DNA of 52,942 bases, filler included, from Basidiobolus ranarum (lineage: Eukaryota), in NCBI GenBank assembly GCA_040143965.1. It is 3 parts of 3 records of this genome, joined end to end, with 100 filler letters (N's around TTAATTAATTAA, not from the genome) between each part and the next. Parts side by side here need not be neighbours in the genome. Positions count along the whole stretch, not along the records: positions 17,697 to 35,285 come from JASJQH010000301.1; 2 more parts are not named here. One strand, written 5' to 3'. The notes below the pieces were generated by a model. That model saw only the letters and a program-made list of their open reading frames with translations, ran no database searches and had not been told where the DNA came from. A program made the translations under genes and the position numbers. Below are positions 28,241 through 32,766 of this stretch, piece after piece. Positions within the stretch are counted from its first letter, which is position 1. Each line of letters begins with the position of its first letter.

Positions 28241-29227
28241 TCTGATAAGCTTGGAGGAGATCCAGGACCAGGAAGAAAGTTGAGGATTACTCAGTCTCGA
28301 GTCAACACATATTTATACTTTTTGCAATAGATTTGAATTCTGTAAGTCCACTTATTATACTTTATCACTCATTTCAAAGGTATACAAATGTCATCTCTTC
28401 AACTCCCTACTGTAATTGGGGTTCCACTTGGTTTAAGGATTATTAATTGAAACCTCGGTATACTACGATACACTGTATACTAATCTCTGATCATTATATT
28501 AAAAAAGATCCCACACTTTAGATGTACACTAACTATGCCATGCTAGTAGGTTAAGTAGTAAACATCAGGCTGAGTGATAGTAGATGTGTATTTGTCAGTT
28601 GATGTCGCAAGGACGCTCTAAGTGTATTAACCCGTTAACGAAGGAGGAGAAACAGTACTGAGGCTTCGATTACAAATTGAGCCTGCACTATCGGGTGGCT
28701 GGTGAAGTTTCATATTGATTGTGATTACAAGTCTTCACATTCATCCAGAAAGCGTTGTGTGTTGACAAGTATGATGGTTTTGCCTAGGAGGCTGAGGCTC
28801 CATGGTCAGGTGGATTTGAGGGAAACATGGTTGATTAGACGTCATAACCATTGGGAGTCTCTGTAGAATACATATGCCTCCAGATCACCATATCTATAGG
28901 TAGATTAGTTCAAACAAGGAGGTGTATTAGGTCACATTTCCTCTTGCCTATACTTGTTGAGTTTCTTGAATATAGATTTAATAGAGATTGGATATAAAAC
29001 ATGTATCAGTCTTGTTCTATTAGATACGTCGGACTGATCATCGTCAATTCATTTGCCTCCATTTCTACTCGTACATTACTACAGTATTTTAAGTTGGGTT
29101 TGGAACGTTTTTAAACAAAATTGGGGAGAATTGAAAAATATTTTGAAACACTTTTTCCTGTCTACTGTATATCTTCATATCTCTATATTCCTCCCTCACT
29201 CTCTCTTACTTTTTAGCGATATAACTA

Positions 29228-31332
29228 CCTATAAAATAAATGTTTAGAGAAAAAATCCATGATATATTAAAAATGGTTTGGAAGCGTAATAAAGAGATAG
29301 AAGAGGAACAAGGTAAAACCTAAAGACGTTATTATACATGATACATAGAAGATATAATAGCAATATCTGATACCCATGTACATAATATAGTCGGTACAAA
29401 GCATAAAAGACCTACTGAATATGAAAAAAATGAGTCAAAAAGGCAAAAATTTATGCAAAACGAAAGGGTAGTGAGGTTTAACAAGAAGAGAGCGTAGCTG
29501 TATGCTCAAGCTGTCACCAAAGCGGTCATAAAAGTTCAAAGTCAAGAGAATGTCCAAACCATAAGTCAACTAAGCAAGAGGAAGTACAAGCACTGCTGGG
29601 AAAGCACACAAGCATAGCAAGAAAGATAAAGTTAGACACGATCCTAAAGCTGGCATACAAGACACCCATCACAGCCAAGGTACGACTAGTATCAGAACAC
29701 ATTCGTAATATAATGATACGTGCTCAACTGTTTGTGGACTACTACGTAATTACCCACTGTGATCAAGCTGTTGACAAAAGAGTCTTTACACATAATTTTT
29801 GGTACTGCGTAACGCAGTTAGTTTTAAGAAAAAACCCAAAAAATACAAAGGCCATGCCAAACGGCTGTTTGACCTTTTGGGAAAGCTTCTTTTCAAGATA
29901 CAACGTAACTTATGAGATGACACCTGTCAGTGATTATTCTAAATTCTGCTACTGTCTACACAAACGCGATTGTAGACTGTTTCGAATCCAGAATTAGATC
30001 ATCCATTGTGTATGATATGAAATTATTCAAAAACGTAAATATACATACAAAATTATATTATTACTATTTCCAAATTACGCATTCATTCTTTATTTAGCCA
30101 AACAAAGGTCTCATAAAAAATTGTTCATTCATACTGCTATCAATACGTTTGTGGAGGAACTCCAGCCTGGCCAGATGCACTTCCTGAAGAATACAACGAT
30201 AAAAAACCAGCTATTGAAGAGATATGTAAGGATTTGCTGTTGACAGATATGCCTAATCCTGTAACGCTGGTAAGCTTGTTTGCCTCTCCTGGGGCATAGA
30301 TTTCCATGTTGGCTAGACTTATGAGAAAGAACGAATACCAACAAGAACAACAGCAGGGACAAGAAAAAAATAAGATGAAGAACAAAAACAAGAACCTCCT
30401 TGCTTGTTTTCGCTATGTCCTGAGCCTTCACTGAAGTGGAGGTTCATAGCGTTCAACCCAAACTGTATTTCCACTTTGGCTGATATAAAGCTCCCAGTCA
30501 CATACGAAGCCAAACTTGAAATGTTTAACAAGGTGTTTGATATTAAGAGACTCAGACTAAACAGTTAAGATGTTTGAGCCTATGTGACACATAGTATGTA
30601 AAAATTTCTTACTTACGAAGTTCTTGGGTATAGTAGCTTCCAAGACCTAAAAGATCCAGACAAGACAAAATTTGCTTTCTCAAACTTAATCAGAACTGAC
30701 GGCTACGCCGCTGATGTTATCTTTCATAAAAGTTTGCAAACGAGTACAGAAGACTTAGGATATTATCATATATATTCACGTGTTGTTTTATTAGAAGAGC
30801 CAACAGATATTGGAAGCCAGAGAAATTTAACCAAGATAAAAATAAGCTACCGATCATCTCCTTTGGTAACGGAATGTTTCGCAAAGGTTCGGTTAAGATT
30901 AAGGGCCTTAGAACAGGCGTCACCGGTGTTCTTTGGCGACAGCTCAAGTTCAGACAAAGATCTGGTGATCTTTTGCTCGTTTATGTCGACGAATTTCGAA
31001 CGTCGAAGGTACAAGATGTCGAACTGATTTTAGCTTATTTATGATTGAATCTAATAATACTGTAAACATGGACCTGTCATTCATGTAACGAAAGATCATT
31101 TACTGAAGCGTATATCGGGTTAAATAGTGTCCAAGCTTGTCAAAGTTGTGGGATATTATGGCAACGCGATGTAAACGCTTCAAAAGATATTTTCAAGATT
31201 TCCAAAGACGTAATCAGTGGTCATGGGTGCCCAACAGCATTTTCTAGAAGCCAATGACTTCTTTCATCATATATAATACATCCCCGTCTCGTACACGGTT
31301 TCTCTTTTCGAAGAGATTTAGATTTTTACAGG
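29228..31332 (+). mobile_element. Non-autonomous Fanzor-carrying DNA transposon with candidate TA target duplication and short imperfect TIRs
   Basis: Left TA|CCTATAAAATAAAT (29226-); right ATTTAGATTTTTACAGG|TA (-31334), whose reverse complement is CCTGTAAAAATCTAAAT; encloses the Fanzor pseudogene; no transposase seen. Confidence 0.6.
29421..31257 (+). pseudogene. Fanzor1 (eukaryotic TnpB/Cas12-like RuvC nuclease), degenerate, with introns
   Basis: CSSCHQSGHKSSKSREC knuckle (29503-29553); LFSLCPEPSLKWRFI; FSNLIRTDGY (30695); LPIISFGNGMF; VYVDEFRTSK (RuvC-II Glu 30991); CHSC...CQSC zinc finger; WQRDVNASKDI (RuvC-III Asp 31168); GHGCPTAFSR*. In-frame stops, frameshifts and an apparent RuvC-I deletion. 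Start position approximate. Confidence 0.85.
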
Positions 31333-31350
31333 TAAAAAATGGAATATCTT
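31258..31350 (+). ncRNA. Putative Fanzor omegaRNA scaffold plus flanking guide
   Basis: Lies between the Fanzor stop and the right end; hairpins CCGT-N7-ACGG (31284-31298) and TCTCTT-TTCG-AAGAGA (31301-31316). Boundaries are inferred. Confidence 0.45.
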
Positions 31351-31450
31351 TGAGCGCATCAATTCTGGAAGATATTCTTTGGAATTTATTGAGTAGAAGG
31401 GATAAAAAGATGCTTCTAAATGGGTTGGTCTTGATGCTCTAATTCGAATA

Positions 31451-32766
31451 CTATTCGTAGTCATCACGTACTTTATCTATTTGTCGCTCTAATTTCTTAG
31501 CATCATTAACTAGATTTTGATATTGGTTGATATTCAGTCCATGCTTGATATAAAGCTTCATCTGCCTTTGAGATACTGCGTAATGTGCCAATGCCTCATA
31601 GGTGTATTCCCGCTTAGTGATCAAGAAGTATAAGTATCCTACGATACCCATGCCAATACTAGTAAAGTATGCCACTGGCTCCATAACTATTTCAAAAGAG
31701 CATTTAGTTAAATAGGTCATCAACAAAAGTATATAAATCTGCACAAACCGTCCCATCCATAATCCCACCATGTTAGACGTGCCTAGACATACCCAGGATT
31801 CAATATAAATGAAATACGAAACGTATAAATAGAGAGATTAAATCCTACCATGATGCCAATGTATGTAACCAGGCCAGTGAAACTTCCAGTAGCTAATACC
31901 AGAGAAGCGGTTTGTGCCTGTTTATCTAATGATTTCTTCAATTTGGACATTGGTTCGATTCTAGATAGTAAATGGTTGTGAAATCTAACTAATCCGGCTG
32001 CTCTTTCTGTTACAATTTGATTTAAAAAGTTAGAACATCCAATTTCACCCAACGAAATTTTGTAAACATGTGGAAATATTTGCCTTCAAAAGTTGGGATT
32101 TTAACAAAGATTTTCTCGTTATCAATCACAACGATGAATCCCTTGGCTTCTCCACACGTAGCAGCTCGTACTAGATCATCCACTTGAAAGTCACTTGTCC
32201 AATCATCACCAATTTTTAATCCATACAAGGCTTCGTGAATGGAGATTTTCTTAATGTGAGGGTACTCTTCTTTTATCTGTTGACTGATGGTAGATATGGG
32301 TAAAGTGAAGCCCAATAACAAGGAAGCAAGTTGAGGTCTCTTACAGTTGGGAGTTGGAATTGGTAAAAAAAACCTAGGGTTTCCGCTATAAGTATCAAAA
32401 TCGAGATAACCTACGAAAAATAGAAATTAATCATTGAAGGAAAAAGGATGAAAGCTATACACTTCACTTACCCATGGCGACATTTCCACCTTCGGCGTCA
32501 GTAATGAACTCGGTTTGGTCACGCTCCTCTGGTTTCAGGTGACTTACCTGAGTGGTGAATTTTTGATTTCCTCCGGCGAACCATACTTTTGTTGCTTTAT
32601 TGACTCTCGTAGAAAAAGGTGAAGTCAGATCAGACCGAGAAATAGTGTCTAATATTTTTCTACCCGGAGCTTTAGGTCCCAAAGAAAGATGACGTGCTTG
32701 GTGCAATAAAATACGGGTGGCACTTAATGCATGTTTTGAAGTGATATGTAGAAGTCCAGCTTGCAT
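31451..32766 (-). CDS. MCU: Mitochondrial calcium uniporter family protein, multi-exon
   Basis: Basic, presequence-like N-terminus; a 34-nt exon (31749-31782) yields ARLTWWDYGWDVMEPVAYF, the WDxxEP selectivity filter between two TMs; C-terminal coiled coil. Confidence 0.88.

What the first reader, a model, noticed from the sequence alone, without database searches (positions are those of the whole stretch)
31258..31355. Candidate omegaRNA at the Fanzor right end, with a guide drawn from the flank
Seen: the 75 nt between the stop codon and the putative terminus hold two hairpins, CCGT-N7-ACGG and a 6-bp stem with a TTCG loop, followed by the TIR. Established: TnpB/Fanzor guide RNAs comprise the element right end plus the flanking host sequence. 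Inference: the guide would be about TAAAAAATGGAATATC (31333 onward), about 120 nt downstream of the convergent MCU stop codon.
Basis: partly seen in the sequence, partly recalled or inferred. Interest (0 to 1): 0.78.

Follow-up and report, generated by a model that had tools for sequence, protein, structure and literature searches.

The report
Guide-RNA remnant of dead Fanzor
The short stretch after a broken Fanzor (RNA-guided nuclease) transposon gene in a Basidiobolus-like fungus probably still holds the folded scaffold of that nuclease's guide RNA, but the nuclease gene is dead, so this is an ordinary relic of a known system.

Summary
On folding energy alone they are no better than chance: z -0.05, with 87 of 200 shuffles folding at least as well.

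A distant, intact-looking metagenomic relative (L002, about 45% protein identity) supports them. It has the same 4-bp/7-nt-loop hairpin with one compensatory pair, a hairpin at the second position, and then a 15-nt block with one mismatch (1 of 1000 shuffles). Similarity fades after TTTTTAC/GGTAA, at 31329-31335.

The layout matches the published PpFz1 omegaRNA and the ROr-1, ROr-2 and PBl-1 consensus sequences: stem-loop, 14-21-nt linker..GG, TA.

The guide-RNA scaffold reading is therefore probably right. Several points weaken it:
- The Fanzor gene is dead. About 165 codons with the RuvC-I aspartate are missing, and there are two frameshifts and an in-frame stop.
- No TIR was found.
- A second relative, L001, does not support the hairpins.
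- No expression data could be obtained.
- The guide start is uncertain: 31333, about 31340 or about 31355.

The scan had already noted dead Fanzor1 relics on three other pieces of this genome. None of those notes dealt with the guide-RNA end.

The parts
29241..31257 (+). Fanzor1-type nuclease pseudogene with introns: CCHC knuckle, REC/WED part, RuvC-II, TNB zinc ribbon and RuvC-III. RuvC-I is missing.
   Evidence: tblastn with Mucor flavus P0037 and other relatives hits only this stretch, in changing frames. The start ATG at 29241 was judged by eye against P0105.
29924..29948 (+). Frameshift, frame 1 to frame 2, inside continuous homology.
   Evidence: P0002 residues 29-198 map to 29437-29943 in frame 1 and residues 200-264 to 29924-30118 in frame 2. 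The two stretches overlap on the DNA, so there is no room for an intron.
30297..30299 (+). In-frame TAG where relatives have Tyr.
   Evidence: The window reads ..ASPGA*ISMLARLM... P0002 and P0003 read ..ASPGAYIPMLAT.. and ..ASPGSYIPMLAT...
30378..30394 (+). Second frameshift, frame 3 to frame 2.
   Evidence: P0002 residues 241-351 end at 30377 in frame 3 and residues 352-407 start at 30395 in frame 2. The gap is 17 nt.
30770..30811 (+). Junction of an internal deletion of about 165 codons that removed the RuvC-I aspartate region.
   Evidence: P0037 residues about 399-556 (containing SLDPGR) and P0007 residues 60-226 (containing GLDPNR) have no counterpart in the window. The flanking HSPs abut at 30805-30826.
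31009..31065 (+). Conserved-position intron after ..DEFRTSK. The in-frame acceptor reads TAA rather than an AG.
   Evidence: Many relatives' gene models break after TSK(V). L002 has GTAAAT...TTTACAG at the same place. Loss of the acceptor is an inference.
31124..31159 (+). Helix inside the last exon (31124-31131 pairing with 31152-31159) around the second CxxC. It is kept in the window, L002 and L001.
   Evidence: RNAalifold and pair counts: the 9-bp helix has 100% of cells paired and 3 pairs changed on both sides. Across all 13 pairs counted (with a 4-bp inner helix), 12 of 500 shuffles reach the observed value, and the slid controls give 34-55% paired. The exon fold has z -3.44.
31284..31298 (+). 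Hairpin 1: CCGT, 7-nt loop, ACGG.
   Evidence: It is in the MFE and centroid fold. L002 1766-1780 has CCGC-N7-GCGG at the co-linear place: 4 of 4 pairs kept in both sequences, one of them compensatory. The hairpin is not seen in L001.
31301..31316 (+). Hairpin 2: TCTCTT, TTCG loop, AAGAGA. This is the candidate SL1 of the omegaRNA.
   Evidence: Fold. L002 has UCUU..GCUAGU-UAAA-GCUAGU.AAGA at the co-linear place. PpFz1, ROr-1, ROr-2 and PBl-1 have a stem-loop at the same distance from ..GG TA.
31311..31329 (+). Conserved block AAGAGATTTAGATTTTTAC.
   Evidence: The 15-nt core 31315-31329 matches L002 1811-1825 with one mismatch, a result reached by 1 of 1000 shuffles. The whole-flank local alignment is reached by 6 of 500 shuffles. 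The motif is expected 0.03 times in the whole window.
31331..31339 (+). GGTAA plus AAAA: probable 3' edge of the scaffold, possibly including a TA target-site duplication.
   Evidence: GGTAA aligns with L002 1836-1840 after a 9-nt insertion. GG TAAGC follows the linker in PpFz1, ROr-2, PBl-1 and L002. The PpFz1 guide starts about 7 nt after GG (inferred).
31340..31360 (+). Candidate guide region.
   Evidence: No significant similarity to L002 downstream of TTTTTAC: 322 of 500 shuffles reach the score. The imperfect palindrome is (I5). The guide itself is an inference.
31451..31771 (-). Last coding exon of the convergent host MCU gene. The candidate guide lies in its 3' flank.
   Evidence: ORF. 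Pfam PF04678, E 1.4e-16.

Best explanation
Positions 31284-31335 (perhaps to 31339) are the decayed remnant of the omegaRNA scaffold of a Fanzor1 element that inserted downstream of the host MCU gene.

In an intact element of this subfamily, the 3' end of the Fanzor transcript would be trimmed to a small RNA made of hairpin 1, hairpin 2 (the SL1 equivalent) and a linker ending ..TTTTTAC(A)GGTAA. About 15-20 nt of whatever DNA lies beyond the element would follow. The nuclease would bind the stem-loops and use the flank-derived tail to find and cut matching DNA next to a TAM.

Here the nuclease gene has lost RuvC-I and carries frameshifts and a stop codon. The locus therefore cannot supply an active enzyme, and the RNA end is a fossil. 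At most it could be a 'ghost'-like guide usable by intact copies elsewhere.

Shown: the sequence features, the gene decay, the similarity to one relative and the published layouts. Inferred: transcription, processing, protein binding, and the scaffold/guide boundary.
For: 1. Gene identity. The pieces translate to a CCHC knuckle..VYVDEFRTSK and CHSC..CQSC..WQRDVNASKD. The last piece hits Pfam TNB PF07282 at E 1.7e-5. A full-length relative, P0037 (Mucor flavus, 690 aa), passes the Pfam cut-off at 31.5 bits and hits the solved SpuFz1 structure 8gkh at E 1.8e-4.

2. Relative L002 looks intact, with VAVDPGR, IDEYYTSQ and WQRDINAGKN. It is co-linear with the window from the GRP codons to the block. 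The shared 15-mer has one mismatch and is reached by 1 of 1000 shuffles. The whole-flank alignment is reached by 6 of 500 shuffles, and the hairpin-1 region by 13 of 500.

3. Hairpin 1 keeps 4 of 4 pairs in both sequences, with U-A changed to C-G. Slid controls give 12.5-50% paired against 100% for the real register. In L002 this stretch is coding and in the window it is non-coding, which points to a constraint at the nucleotide level.

4. A hairpin at the second position is present in the L002 MFE and centroid folds.

5. The layout matches the PpFz1 omegaRNA (Table S3 of PMC11423790) and the 3' parts of the ROr-1, ROr-2 and PBl-1 consensus sequences (supplement S2 of PMC3627910). All have a stem-loop, then a 14-21-nt linker ending GG, then TA. 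The window has a 16-nt linker.

6. Of 806 perfect 6-bp hairpins on both strands of the window, only this one has GGTAA 10-35 nt downstream. This test is post hoc.

7. [quoted passage not shown]
Against: - Folding energy is at chance level: z -0.05 and +0.25.
- Only one relative is informative. With two sequences the shuffle control for hairpin 1 is uninformative (247 of 500).
- L001 is the closer relative by protein (62% identity). It has only 56 nt after its stop codon and is not significantly similar to the window (69 of 500 shuffles reach the score). It also lacks the 5' arm of hairpin 1.
- Hairpin 2 has 6 bp and a tetraloop, against 7 bp and a hexaloop in the published SL1.
- MAFFT did not place the two hairpin-2 stems in register.
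- There is no TIR or TSD.
- There is no second copy in the window.
- Rfam gives nothing at or above gathering score: 7 matches, all with E of 0.81 or more.
- No RNA data could be obtained.
- In ROr-1, ROr-2 and PBl-1 the consensus continues about 190-330 nt beyond GG TA, so GG TA need not be a transposon terminus.
- GGTAAG also resembles a 5' splice site.
Confidence: 0.58

Rival explanations
1. The element is the same, but the boundary differs. The scaffold ends in a long terminal hairpin (window 31307-31354), so the right end is near 31354 and the guide starts near 31355. Hairpin 2 would then be only an alternative fold.
For: - An imperfect palindrome has arms 31308-31329 and 31332-31353, 22 nt each, 73% complementary. 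It is the MFE fold once the flank is included.
- L002 folds the co-linear stretch 1805-1856 into a 9-bp-closed long hairpin, z -2.49, matched by 2 of 200 shuffles.
- Both 3' arms contain A(A/T)TATCTT, and the best local alignment runs through it.
- Published Fanzor1 reRNAs use the TIR and TSD as part of a scaffold stem (PMC10711439 passages).
Against: - The window fold is at chance level, z -0.05 and +0.50.
- Similarity downstream of TTTTTAC is not significant on its own: 322 of 500 shuffles reach the score.
- The arms are conserved in sequence, so there is no covariation.
- PpFz1 has only a 4-bp SL2.
Confidence: 0.2
2. The conserved block and hairpins are a DNA-level or mRNA-level signal of the element, such as a subterminal transposase-binding site, a 3' UTR or polyadenylation signal, or a terminator for the convergent genes. 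They are not a guide-RNA scaffold.
For: - The conservation evidence does not say at what level selection acts.
- The region is AT-rich and lies between two convergent genes.
- In ROr-1, ROr-2 and PBl-1 the module lies inside the annotated element, not at its tip.
Against: - The same stem-loop/linker/GG-TA module is the experimentally recovered PpFz1 omegaRNA.
- Hairpin 1 changes by a compensatory pair.
- The hairpin-2 stem in L002 uses G-U pairs that would be A-C mismatches on the other strand, which favours RNA of the + strand.
Confidence: 0.14
3. These are chance hairpins and chance similarity in AT-rich intergenic DNA. Nothing of the element survives downstream of the stop codon.
For: - Folding z-scores are near 0.
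- The 15-mer occurs at least 118 times by chance in viral contigs, none beside a Fanzor gene.
- L001 shows no significant similarity.
Against: - 1 of 1000 and 6 of 500 shuffles reach the observed similarity to L002.
- The spacing from the GRP codons to hairpin 1 is co-linear: 51 nt in the window and 53 nt in L002.
- The layout agrees with four published right ends.
Confidence: 0.08

Closest known systems
PpFz1 omegaRNA (Parasitella parasitica Fanzor1; Cell 2024, PMC11423790; passages and Table S3 read)
   Same: It is a Mucoromycota Fanzor1. It has a short scaffold with one main stem-loop (SL1), then a 12-nt linker ending ..GCAGG, then TAAGCAA before the guide. The window has a 6-bp stem-loop, a 16-nt linker ending ..ACAGG, then TAAAAAA. 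Scaffold length is about 45 nt from 31294 to 31339, against about 46 nt in PpFz1.
   Different: - PpFz1 SL1 has 7 bp and a TTATCG hexaloop. The window has 6 bp and a TTCG tetraloop, plus an extra upstream hairpin.
- The proteins are only distantly related: pieces of the window protein gave no PDB hit.
- The window gene is dead, and nothing here is shown experimentally.
SpuFz1 / SPu-1 of Spizellomyces punctatus (Nature 2023, PMC10432273, passages read; PDB 8gkh)
   Same: It is the closest solved protein to the subfamily (P0037 against 8gkh, E 1.8e-4). Its omegaRNA fills the roughly 80 nt between stop codon and right end, with a 75-nt scaffold and a 14-15-nt flank-derived guide.
   Different: SPu-1 has 30-33-bp inverted repeats and a TA duplication. 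No TIR is detectable here. SPu-1 has no introns, whereas this gene has several.
Right-end modules of ROr-1, ROr-2 and PBl-1 (Bao and Jurka 2013, PMC3627910, supplements S1 and S2 read in part)
   Same: They have a stem-loop with covarying stems, a linker ending ..CAGG, ..TTGG or ..CTGG, and then TA(AGC).
   Different: - They are different protein subfamilies: none of FGNGMF, FGAGMF, LFVNYY or WQRD occurs in the paper's protein file.
- There the consensus runs about 190-330 nt further, to 12-90-bp TIRs.
SfAV Fanzor1 reRNA (Yoon et al. 2023, PMC10711439, passages read)
   Same: The RNA comes from the element's right end, and the TSD is counted into the scaffold, with about 15 nt of flank beyond it. 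This would put the guide start at 31335 here if TA is a TSD.
   Different: It is an insect-virus element with clear TIRs and a three-stem fold, and its expression has been shown in vivo.
Fanzor 'ghost' loci of S. punctatus (PMC10432273, passages read)
   Same: They have an omegaRNA-bearing right end without a working nuclease gene at the same locus.
   Different: Ghost loci are short, IR-bounded and multi-copy. This is a decayed full-length element, seen once in the window.

Membership tests
Fanzor1 nuclease (TnpB-like, RuvC plus TNB zinc ribbon) | RuvC-I aspartate (..DPG.. strand) | tested here: not met
   P0037 residues about 399-556 (SLDPGR) and P0007 residues 60-226 have no tblastn counterpart in the window. 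Relatives keep the motif. The window copy is deleted there.
Fanzor1 nuclease (TnpB-like, RuvC plus TNB zinc ribbon) | RuvC-II glutamate in DE(F/Y)xTS | tested here: met
   VYVDEFRTSK is encoded at 30979-31008.
Fanzor1 nuclease (TnpB-like, RuvC plus TNB zinc ribbon) | CxxC...CxxC zinc ribbon followed by the RuvC-III aspartate | tested here: met
   CHSC..CQSC..WQRDVNASKD. Pfam PF07282 gives E 1.7e-5 at 25.3 bits, just under the 26.3 cut-off. Relative P0037 scores 31.5 bits.
Fanzor1 nuclease (TnpB-like, RuvC plus TNB zinc ribbon) | Sequence relation to an experimentally characterised Fanzor1 | tested here: inconclusive
   Window pieces gave 0 PDB hits. The full-length relative P0037 hits SpuFz1 8gkh at E 1.8e-4, with no single stretch passing on its own.
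Fanzor1 nuclease (TnpB-like, RuvC plus TNB zinc ribbon) | Uninterrupted reading frame after splicing | tested here: not met
   Two frameshifts, an in-frame TAG and the internal deletion.
Fanzor1 omegaRNA | Encoded on the nuclease strand at or just after the ORF 3' end | tested here: met
   The hairpins and block lie 27-75 nt after the stop codon on the + strand.
Fanzor1 omegaRNA | First stem-loop of seven base pairs (PMC11423790) | tested here: inconclusive
   Hairpin 2 has 6 Watson-Crick pairs flanked by U/U. L002 has a longer composite stem.
Fanzor1 omegaRNA | Scaffold conserved among copies up to the right end, with flank-specific sequence after it | tested here: inconclusive
   One relative (L002) shows this, with the break at 31329-31335. 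L001 is too short and not significant. Genomic copies could not be fetched.
Fanzor1 omegaRNA | Right end marked by a TIR and TSD that enter the scaffold | tested here: not met
   No inverted match to the left region above shuffles. The left end is not located.
Fanzor1 omegaRNA | Expressed as a small RNA extending about 14-21 nt into the flank | not testable with these tools
Fanzor1 omegaRNA | Binds the nuclease and directs TAM-dependent cleavage | not testable with these tools
   This needs RNP purification and a cleavage assay.

The most novel reading that the evidence does not exclude
The two hairpins plus the AAGA(T)GATTWAGATTTTTAC block define the so far undescribed omegaRNA scaffold of a CCHC-knuckle Fanzor1 subfamily that is intact and multi-copy in Mucor flavus. 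Its precursor would reach back into the ORF, where a covarying 9-bp helix wraps the second CxxC of the zinc ribbon (31124-31159). That would be a TnpB-like overlap of guide RNA and coding sequence not reported for the short fungal Fanzor1 omegaRNAs. The Basidiobolus relic would still be transcribed and loaded in trans.
Probability: 0.15. Interest if true: 0.5.

Novelty: new member of a known kind. Interest (0 to 1): 0.3.

Why it matters
The locus itself is a fossil and changes nothing about how Fanzor systems are understood. Its use is practical.

Together with the metagenomic relative, it marks where the guide-RNA scaffold of an uncharacterised Fanzor1 subfamily lies. That subfamily carries an N-terminal CCHC knuckle and is intact and multi-copy in Mucor flavus. 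This is the information needed to test those intact nucleases as compact genome editors.

It also adds a Basidiobolus-like host to a family so far described from Mucorales and chytrids. A full-text search for Fanzor together with Basidiobolus found 0 papers.

Tried and rejected
- Own-genome search for other copies: no genome is held.
- PDB search with two window pieces: 0 hits.
- Pfam on six pieces: only the last piece hit.
- Rfam: 7 sub-threshold matches with E of 0.81-9.2, treated as noise.
- Metagenome scan. The closer alignment A2 gave 3 loci out of 184 pattern matches. L003 is a weak 28-residue match and was not studied.
- Viral-contig protein scan: 394 pattern matches, none confirmed.
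- Prokaryote genome-contig scan: 1 weak hit (L004, in an Oscillibacter bin) out of 79, not studied.
- 15-mer scan of viral contigs: at least 118 matches. None is next to a Fanzor relative, so the scan served only as a control.
- Motif text searches in the Bao and Jurka DNA file. The window's block is absent (one unrelated coding hit), and the GGTAAGCAA hits are mostly 5' splice sites.
- Protein motifs of this subfamily are absent from their protein file.
- TIR search: nothing above shuffles.
- A 3' UTR intron ending at TTTTTACAG was considered and dropped, because L002 has no AG there.
- MAFFT alignment of the two hairpin-2 stems did not put them in register, so no pair count was made for hairpin 2.
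- The published omegaRNA and consensus sequences were compared by eye only and were not fed to any tool.
Full report
OBSERVATION

The coordinates are right. The stop codon TGA is at 31255-31257. CCGT-N7-ACGG is at 31284-31298, TCTCTT-TTCG-AAGAGA at 31301-31316 and ACAGG at 31328-31332. The two hairpins are the minimum-energy and centroid fold of the 75 nt.

Thermodynamically they are unremarkable. The MFE is -7.8 kcal/mol against -7.68 for shuffles, z -0.05, and 87 of 200 shuffles fold at least as well. The 32-nt end is unique in the window.

The 'TIR' could not be found. The best inverted matches between the right end and 28241-29240 are reached by 203, 245 and 243 of 300 shuffles.

THE GENE

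Earlier notes of this scan place the genome in a Basidiobolus-like fungus. The flanks are host genes: an aquaporin (PF00230) and a convergent MCU (PF04678, E 1.4e-16).

Between them, 29241-31257 encodes a Fanzor1-type protein in pieces:
- a CCHC knuckle and REC part, 46-58% identical to proteins of Parasitella, Phycomyces and two unnamed assemblies;
- ..IISFGNGMF..VYVDEFRTSK;
- after an intron at a conserved position, CHSC..CQSC..WQRDVNASKD. Pfam TNB gives E 1.7e-5, just under the cut-off.

A search of 1.84 billion representative proteins with the 73-aa RuvC-II piece gave 198 proteins at E of 0.001 or better. The full-length ones include P0037 of Mucor flavus (690 aa). P0037 has paralogues at 78-96% identity in that fungus, passes the Pfam TNB cut-off and weakly hits the solved SpuFz1 (8gkh, E 1.8e-4).

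The window copy is dead:
- tblastn shows no counterpart for P0037 residues about 399-556 or P0007 residues 60-226, which carry the RuvC-I aspartate.
- There are frame changes without room for introns at about 29945 and 30378-30394.
- There is an in-frame TAG at 30297-30299 where relatives have Tyr.
- Two splice sites also look damaged. This was judged by eye and is an inference.

A second Basidiobolus ranarum copy exists as protein P0005 (89% identity over 64 residues), but its DNA could not be reached.

RELATIVES OF THE 3' REGION

The only DNA of relatives came from one metagenome scan, in which 3 of 184 pattern matches were confirmed.

L002 (2190 nt) encodes an intact-looking relative about 45% identical, with VAVDPGR, IDEYYTSQ and WQRDINAGKN. 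From the conserved GRP codons onward the two loci are co-linear.
- Hairpin 1 is CCGT-N7-ACGG in the window and CCGC-N7-GCGG in L002. All 4 pairs are kept in both, and one is compensatory. Slid registers pair 12.5-50%. With two sequences the shuffle control says nothing (247 of 500). This stretch is coding in L002 and non-coding in the window.
- At the place of hairpin 2, L002 has UCUU..GCUAGU-UAAA-GCUAGU.AAGA, with its stop codon in the loop.
- Then comes AAGA(T)GATTWAGATTTTTAC. The 15-nt core differs at one base, a result reached by 1 of 1000 dinucleotide shuffles. The whole-flank local alignment is reached by 6 of 500 shuffles, and the hairpin-1 region by 13 of 500.
- After TTTTTAC, L002 has 9 extra bases and then GGTAA, as in the window. 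Beyond that point the similarity is not significant (322 of 500).

L001 is closer by protein (62%) but ends 56 nt after its stop codon. It is not significantly similar to the window (69 of 500) and shares only ATGCGGTTT with L002 (25 of 500). It lacks the 5' arm of hairpin 1. This counts against a universal hairpin 1.

PUBLISHED omegaRNAs

I read passages and Table S3 of PMC11423790. The PpFz1 omegaRNA is 71 nt: 6 nt, a 7-bp SL1 with a TTATCG loop, then 12 nt ending GCAGG, then TAAGCAA, then the guide. I place the guide start at about nt 47, because the text names U26 as scaffold and C50-C58 as guide behind a 3-bp heteroduplex. That placement is an inference.

In supplement S2 of PMC3627910, the 3' parts of ROr-1, ROr-2, PBl-1 and one further Phycomyces entry show the same module with covarying stems. 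The linkers end ..CAGG..TTGG..CTGG and ..CAGTG, each followed by TA. The window reads 6-bp stem, 16 nt ending ACAGG, then TAAAAAA.

Of 806 perfect 6-bp hairpins on both strands of the window, only this one has GGTAA 10-35 nt downstream (the pattern was chosen after seeing the data).

Two cautions apply:
- In ROr-1, ROr-2 and PBl-1 the consensus continues about 190-330 nt to the TIRs.
- GGTAAG is also a 5' splice-site word.

In SpuFz1 the scaffold fills the roughly 80 nt after the stop codon and the guide is 14-15 nt (PMC10432273 passages). Yoon et al. count the TSD into the scaffold (PMC10711439 passages).

BOUNDARY

Conservation is secure to 31329 and plausible to 31335. The guide could start in three places:
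- at 31335-31340, if TA is a TSD or if the PpFz1 analogy holds;
- near 31355, if the imperfect palindrome 31307-31354 is the true terminal stem. In L002 that palindrome is matched by a long hairpin with z -2.49.

This cannot be settled with two sequences.

MECHANISM AND VERDICT

The stretch is most likely (0.58) the fossil scaffold of a Fanzor1 omegaRNA. Hairpin 2 is the SL1 equivalent, hairpin 1 is a subfamily-specific addition, and the linker ends ..ACAGGTAA. Because the nuclease gene lacks RuvC-I, the locus is not a working system. Any activity would need an intact copy in trans, and none was seen. This is a new member of a known kind. Interest is modest.

LIMITS

- There is one informative relative.
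- There are no expression data.
- Published sequences were compared by eye only.
- The supplements of PMC10432273, PMC10530073 and PMC10711439 were not read and may list omegaRNAs of this subfamily.

Noticed in passing
window 31066-31257, chiefly 31090-31194: The last coding exon folds far better than shuffles: z -3.44, with 0 of 200 shuffles as good. Its core helix, 31124-31131 with 31152-31159, brackets the second CxxC of the zinc ribbon. It is kept in the window, L002 and L001 with 3 pairs changed on both sides. Across the 13 pairs counted (with a 4-bp inner helix), 12 of 500 shuffles reach the observed value, and slid controls give 34-55% paired. It may be an RNA element overlapping the ORF end.
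   Followed up: partly
Published consensus sequences ROr-1, ROr-2 and PBl-1 (supplement S2 of PMC3627910): The stem-loop/linker/GG-TA module that matches the PpFz1 omegaRNA lies about 190-330 nt inside the annotated right terminus of these TIR-bounded elements. Their 'guide' would therefore be element-internal sequence that is partly conserved between Rhizopus and Phycomyces.
   Followed up: no
window 29241-31257: The Fanzor relic is not CpG-depleted: observed/expected is 0.78, against 0.73 for the whole window and 0.82 for the aquaporin ORF. Earlier notes on this genome report near-total CpG loss in other transposons.
   Followed up: partly
window 29482-29570; P0004: This Fanzor1 subfamily starts with a CCHC zinc knuckle. 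The Phycomyces homologue is named 'CCHC-type zinc finger transcription factor' by its source, which looks like a misnomer for a Fanzor fragment.
   Followed up: no
L002 1789-1808: A tandem duplication, GCTAGTTAAA then GCTAGTTAAG, spans the stop codon. Because GCUAGU pairs with itself, the duplication creates the inner stem of the second hairpin.
   Followed up: partly
window 31060-31066 with 31324-31330: In the 273-nt fold, CUGUAAA at the end of the last intron pairs with UUUACAG at the proposed right end. The overall z is -2.70, with 1 of 200 shuffles as good. The score is driven mainly by the exon hairpin, and the significance of the long-range pair is unknown.
   Followed up: no
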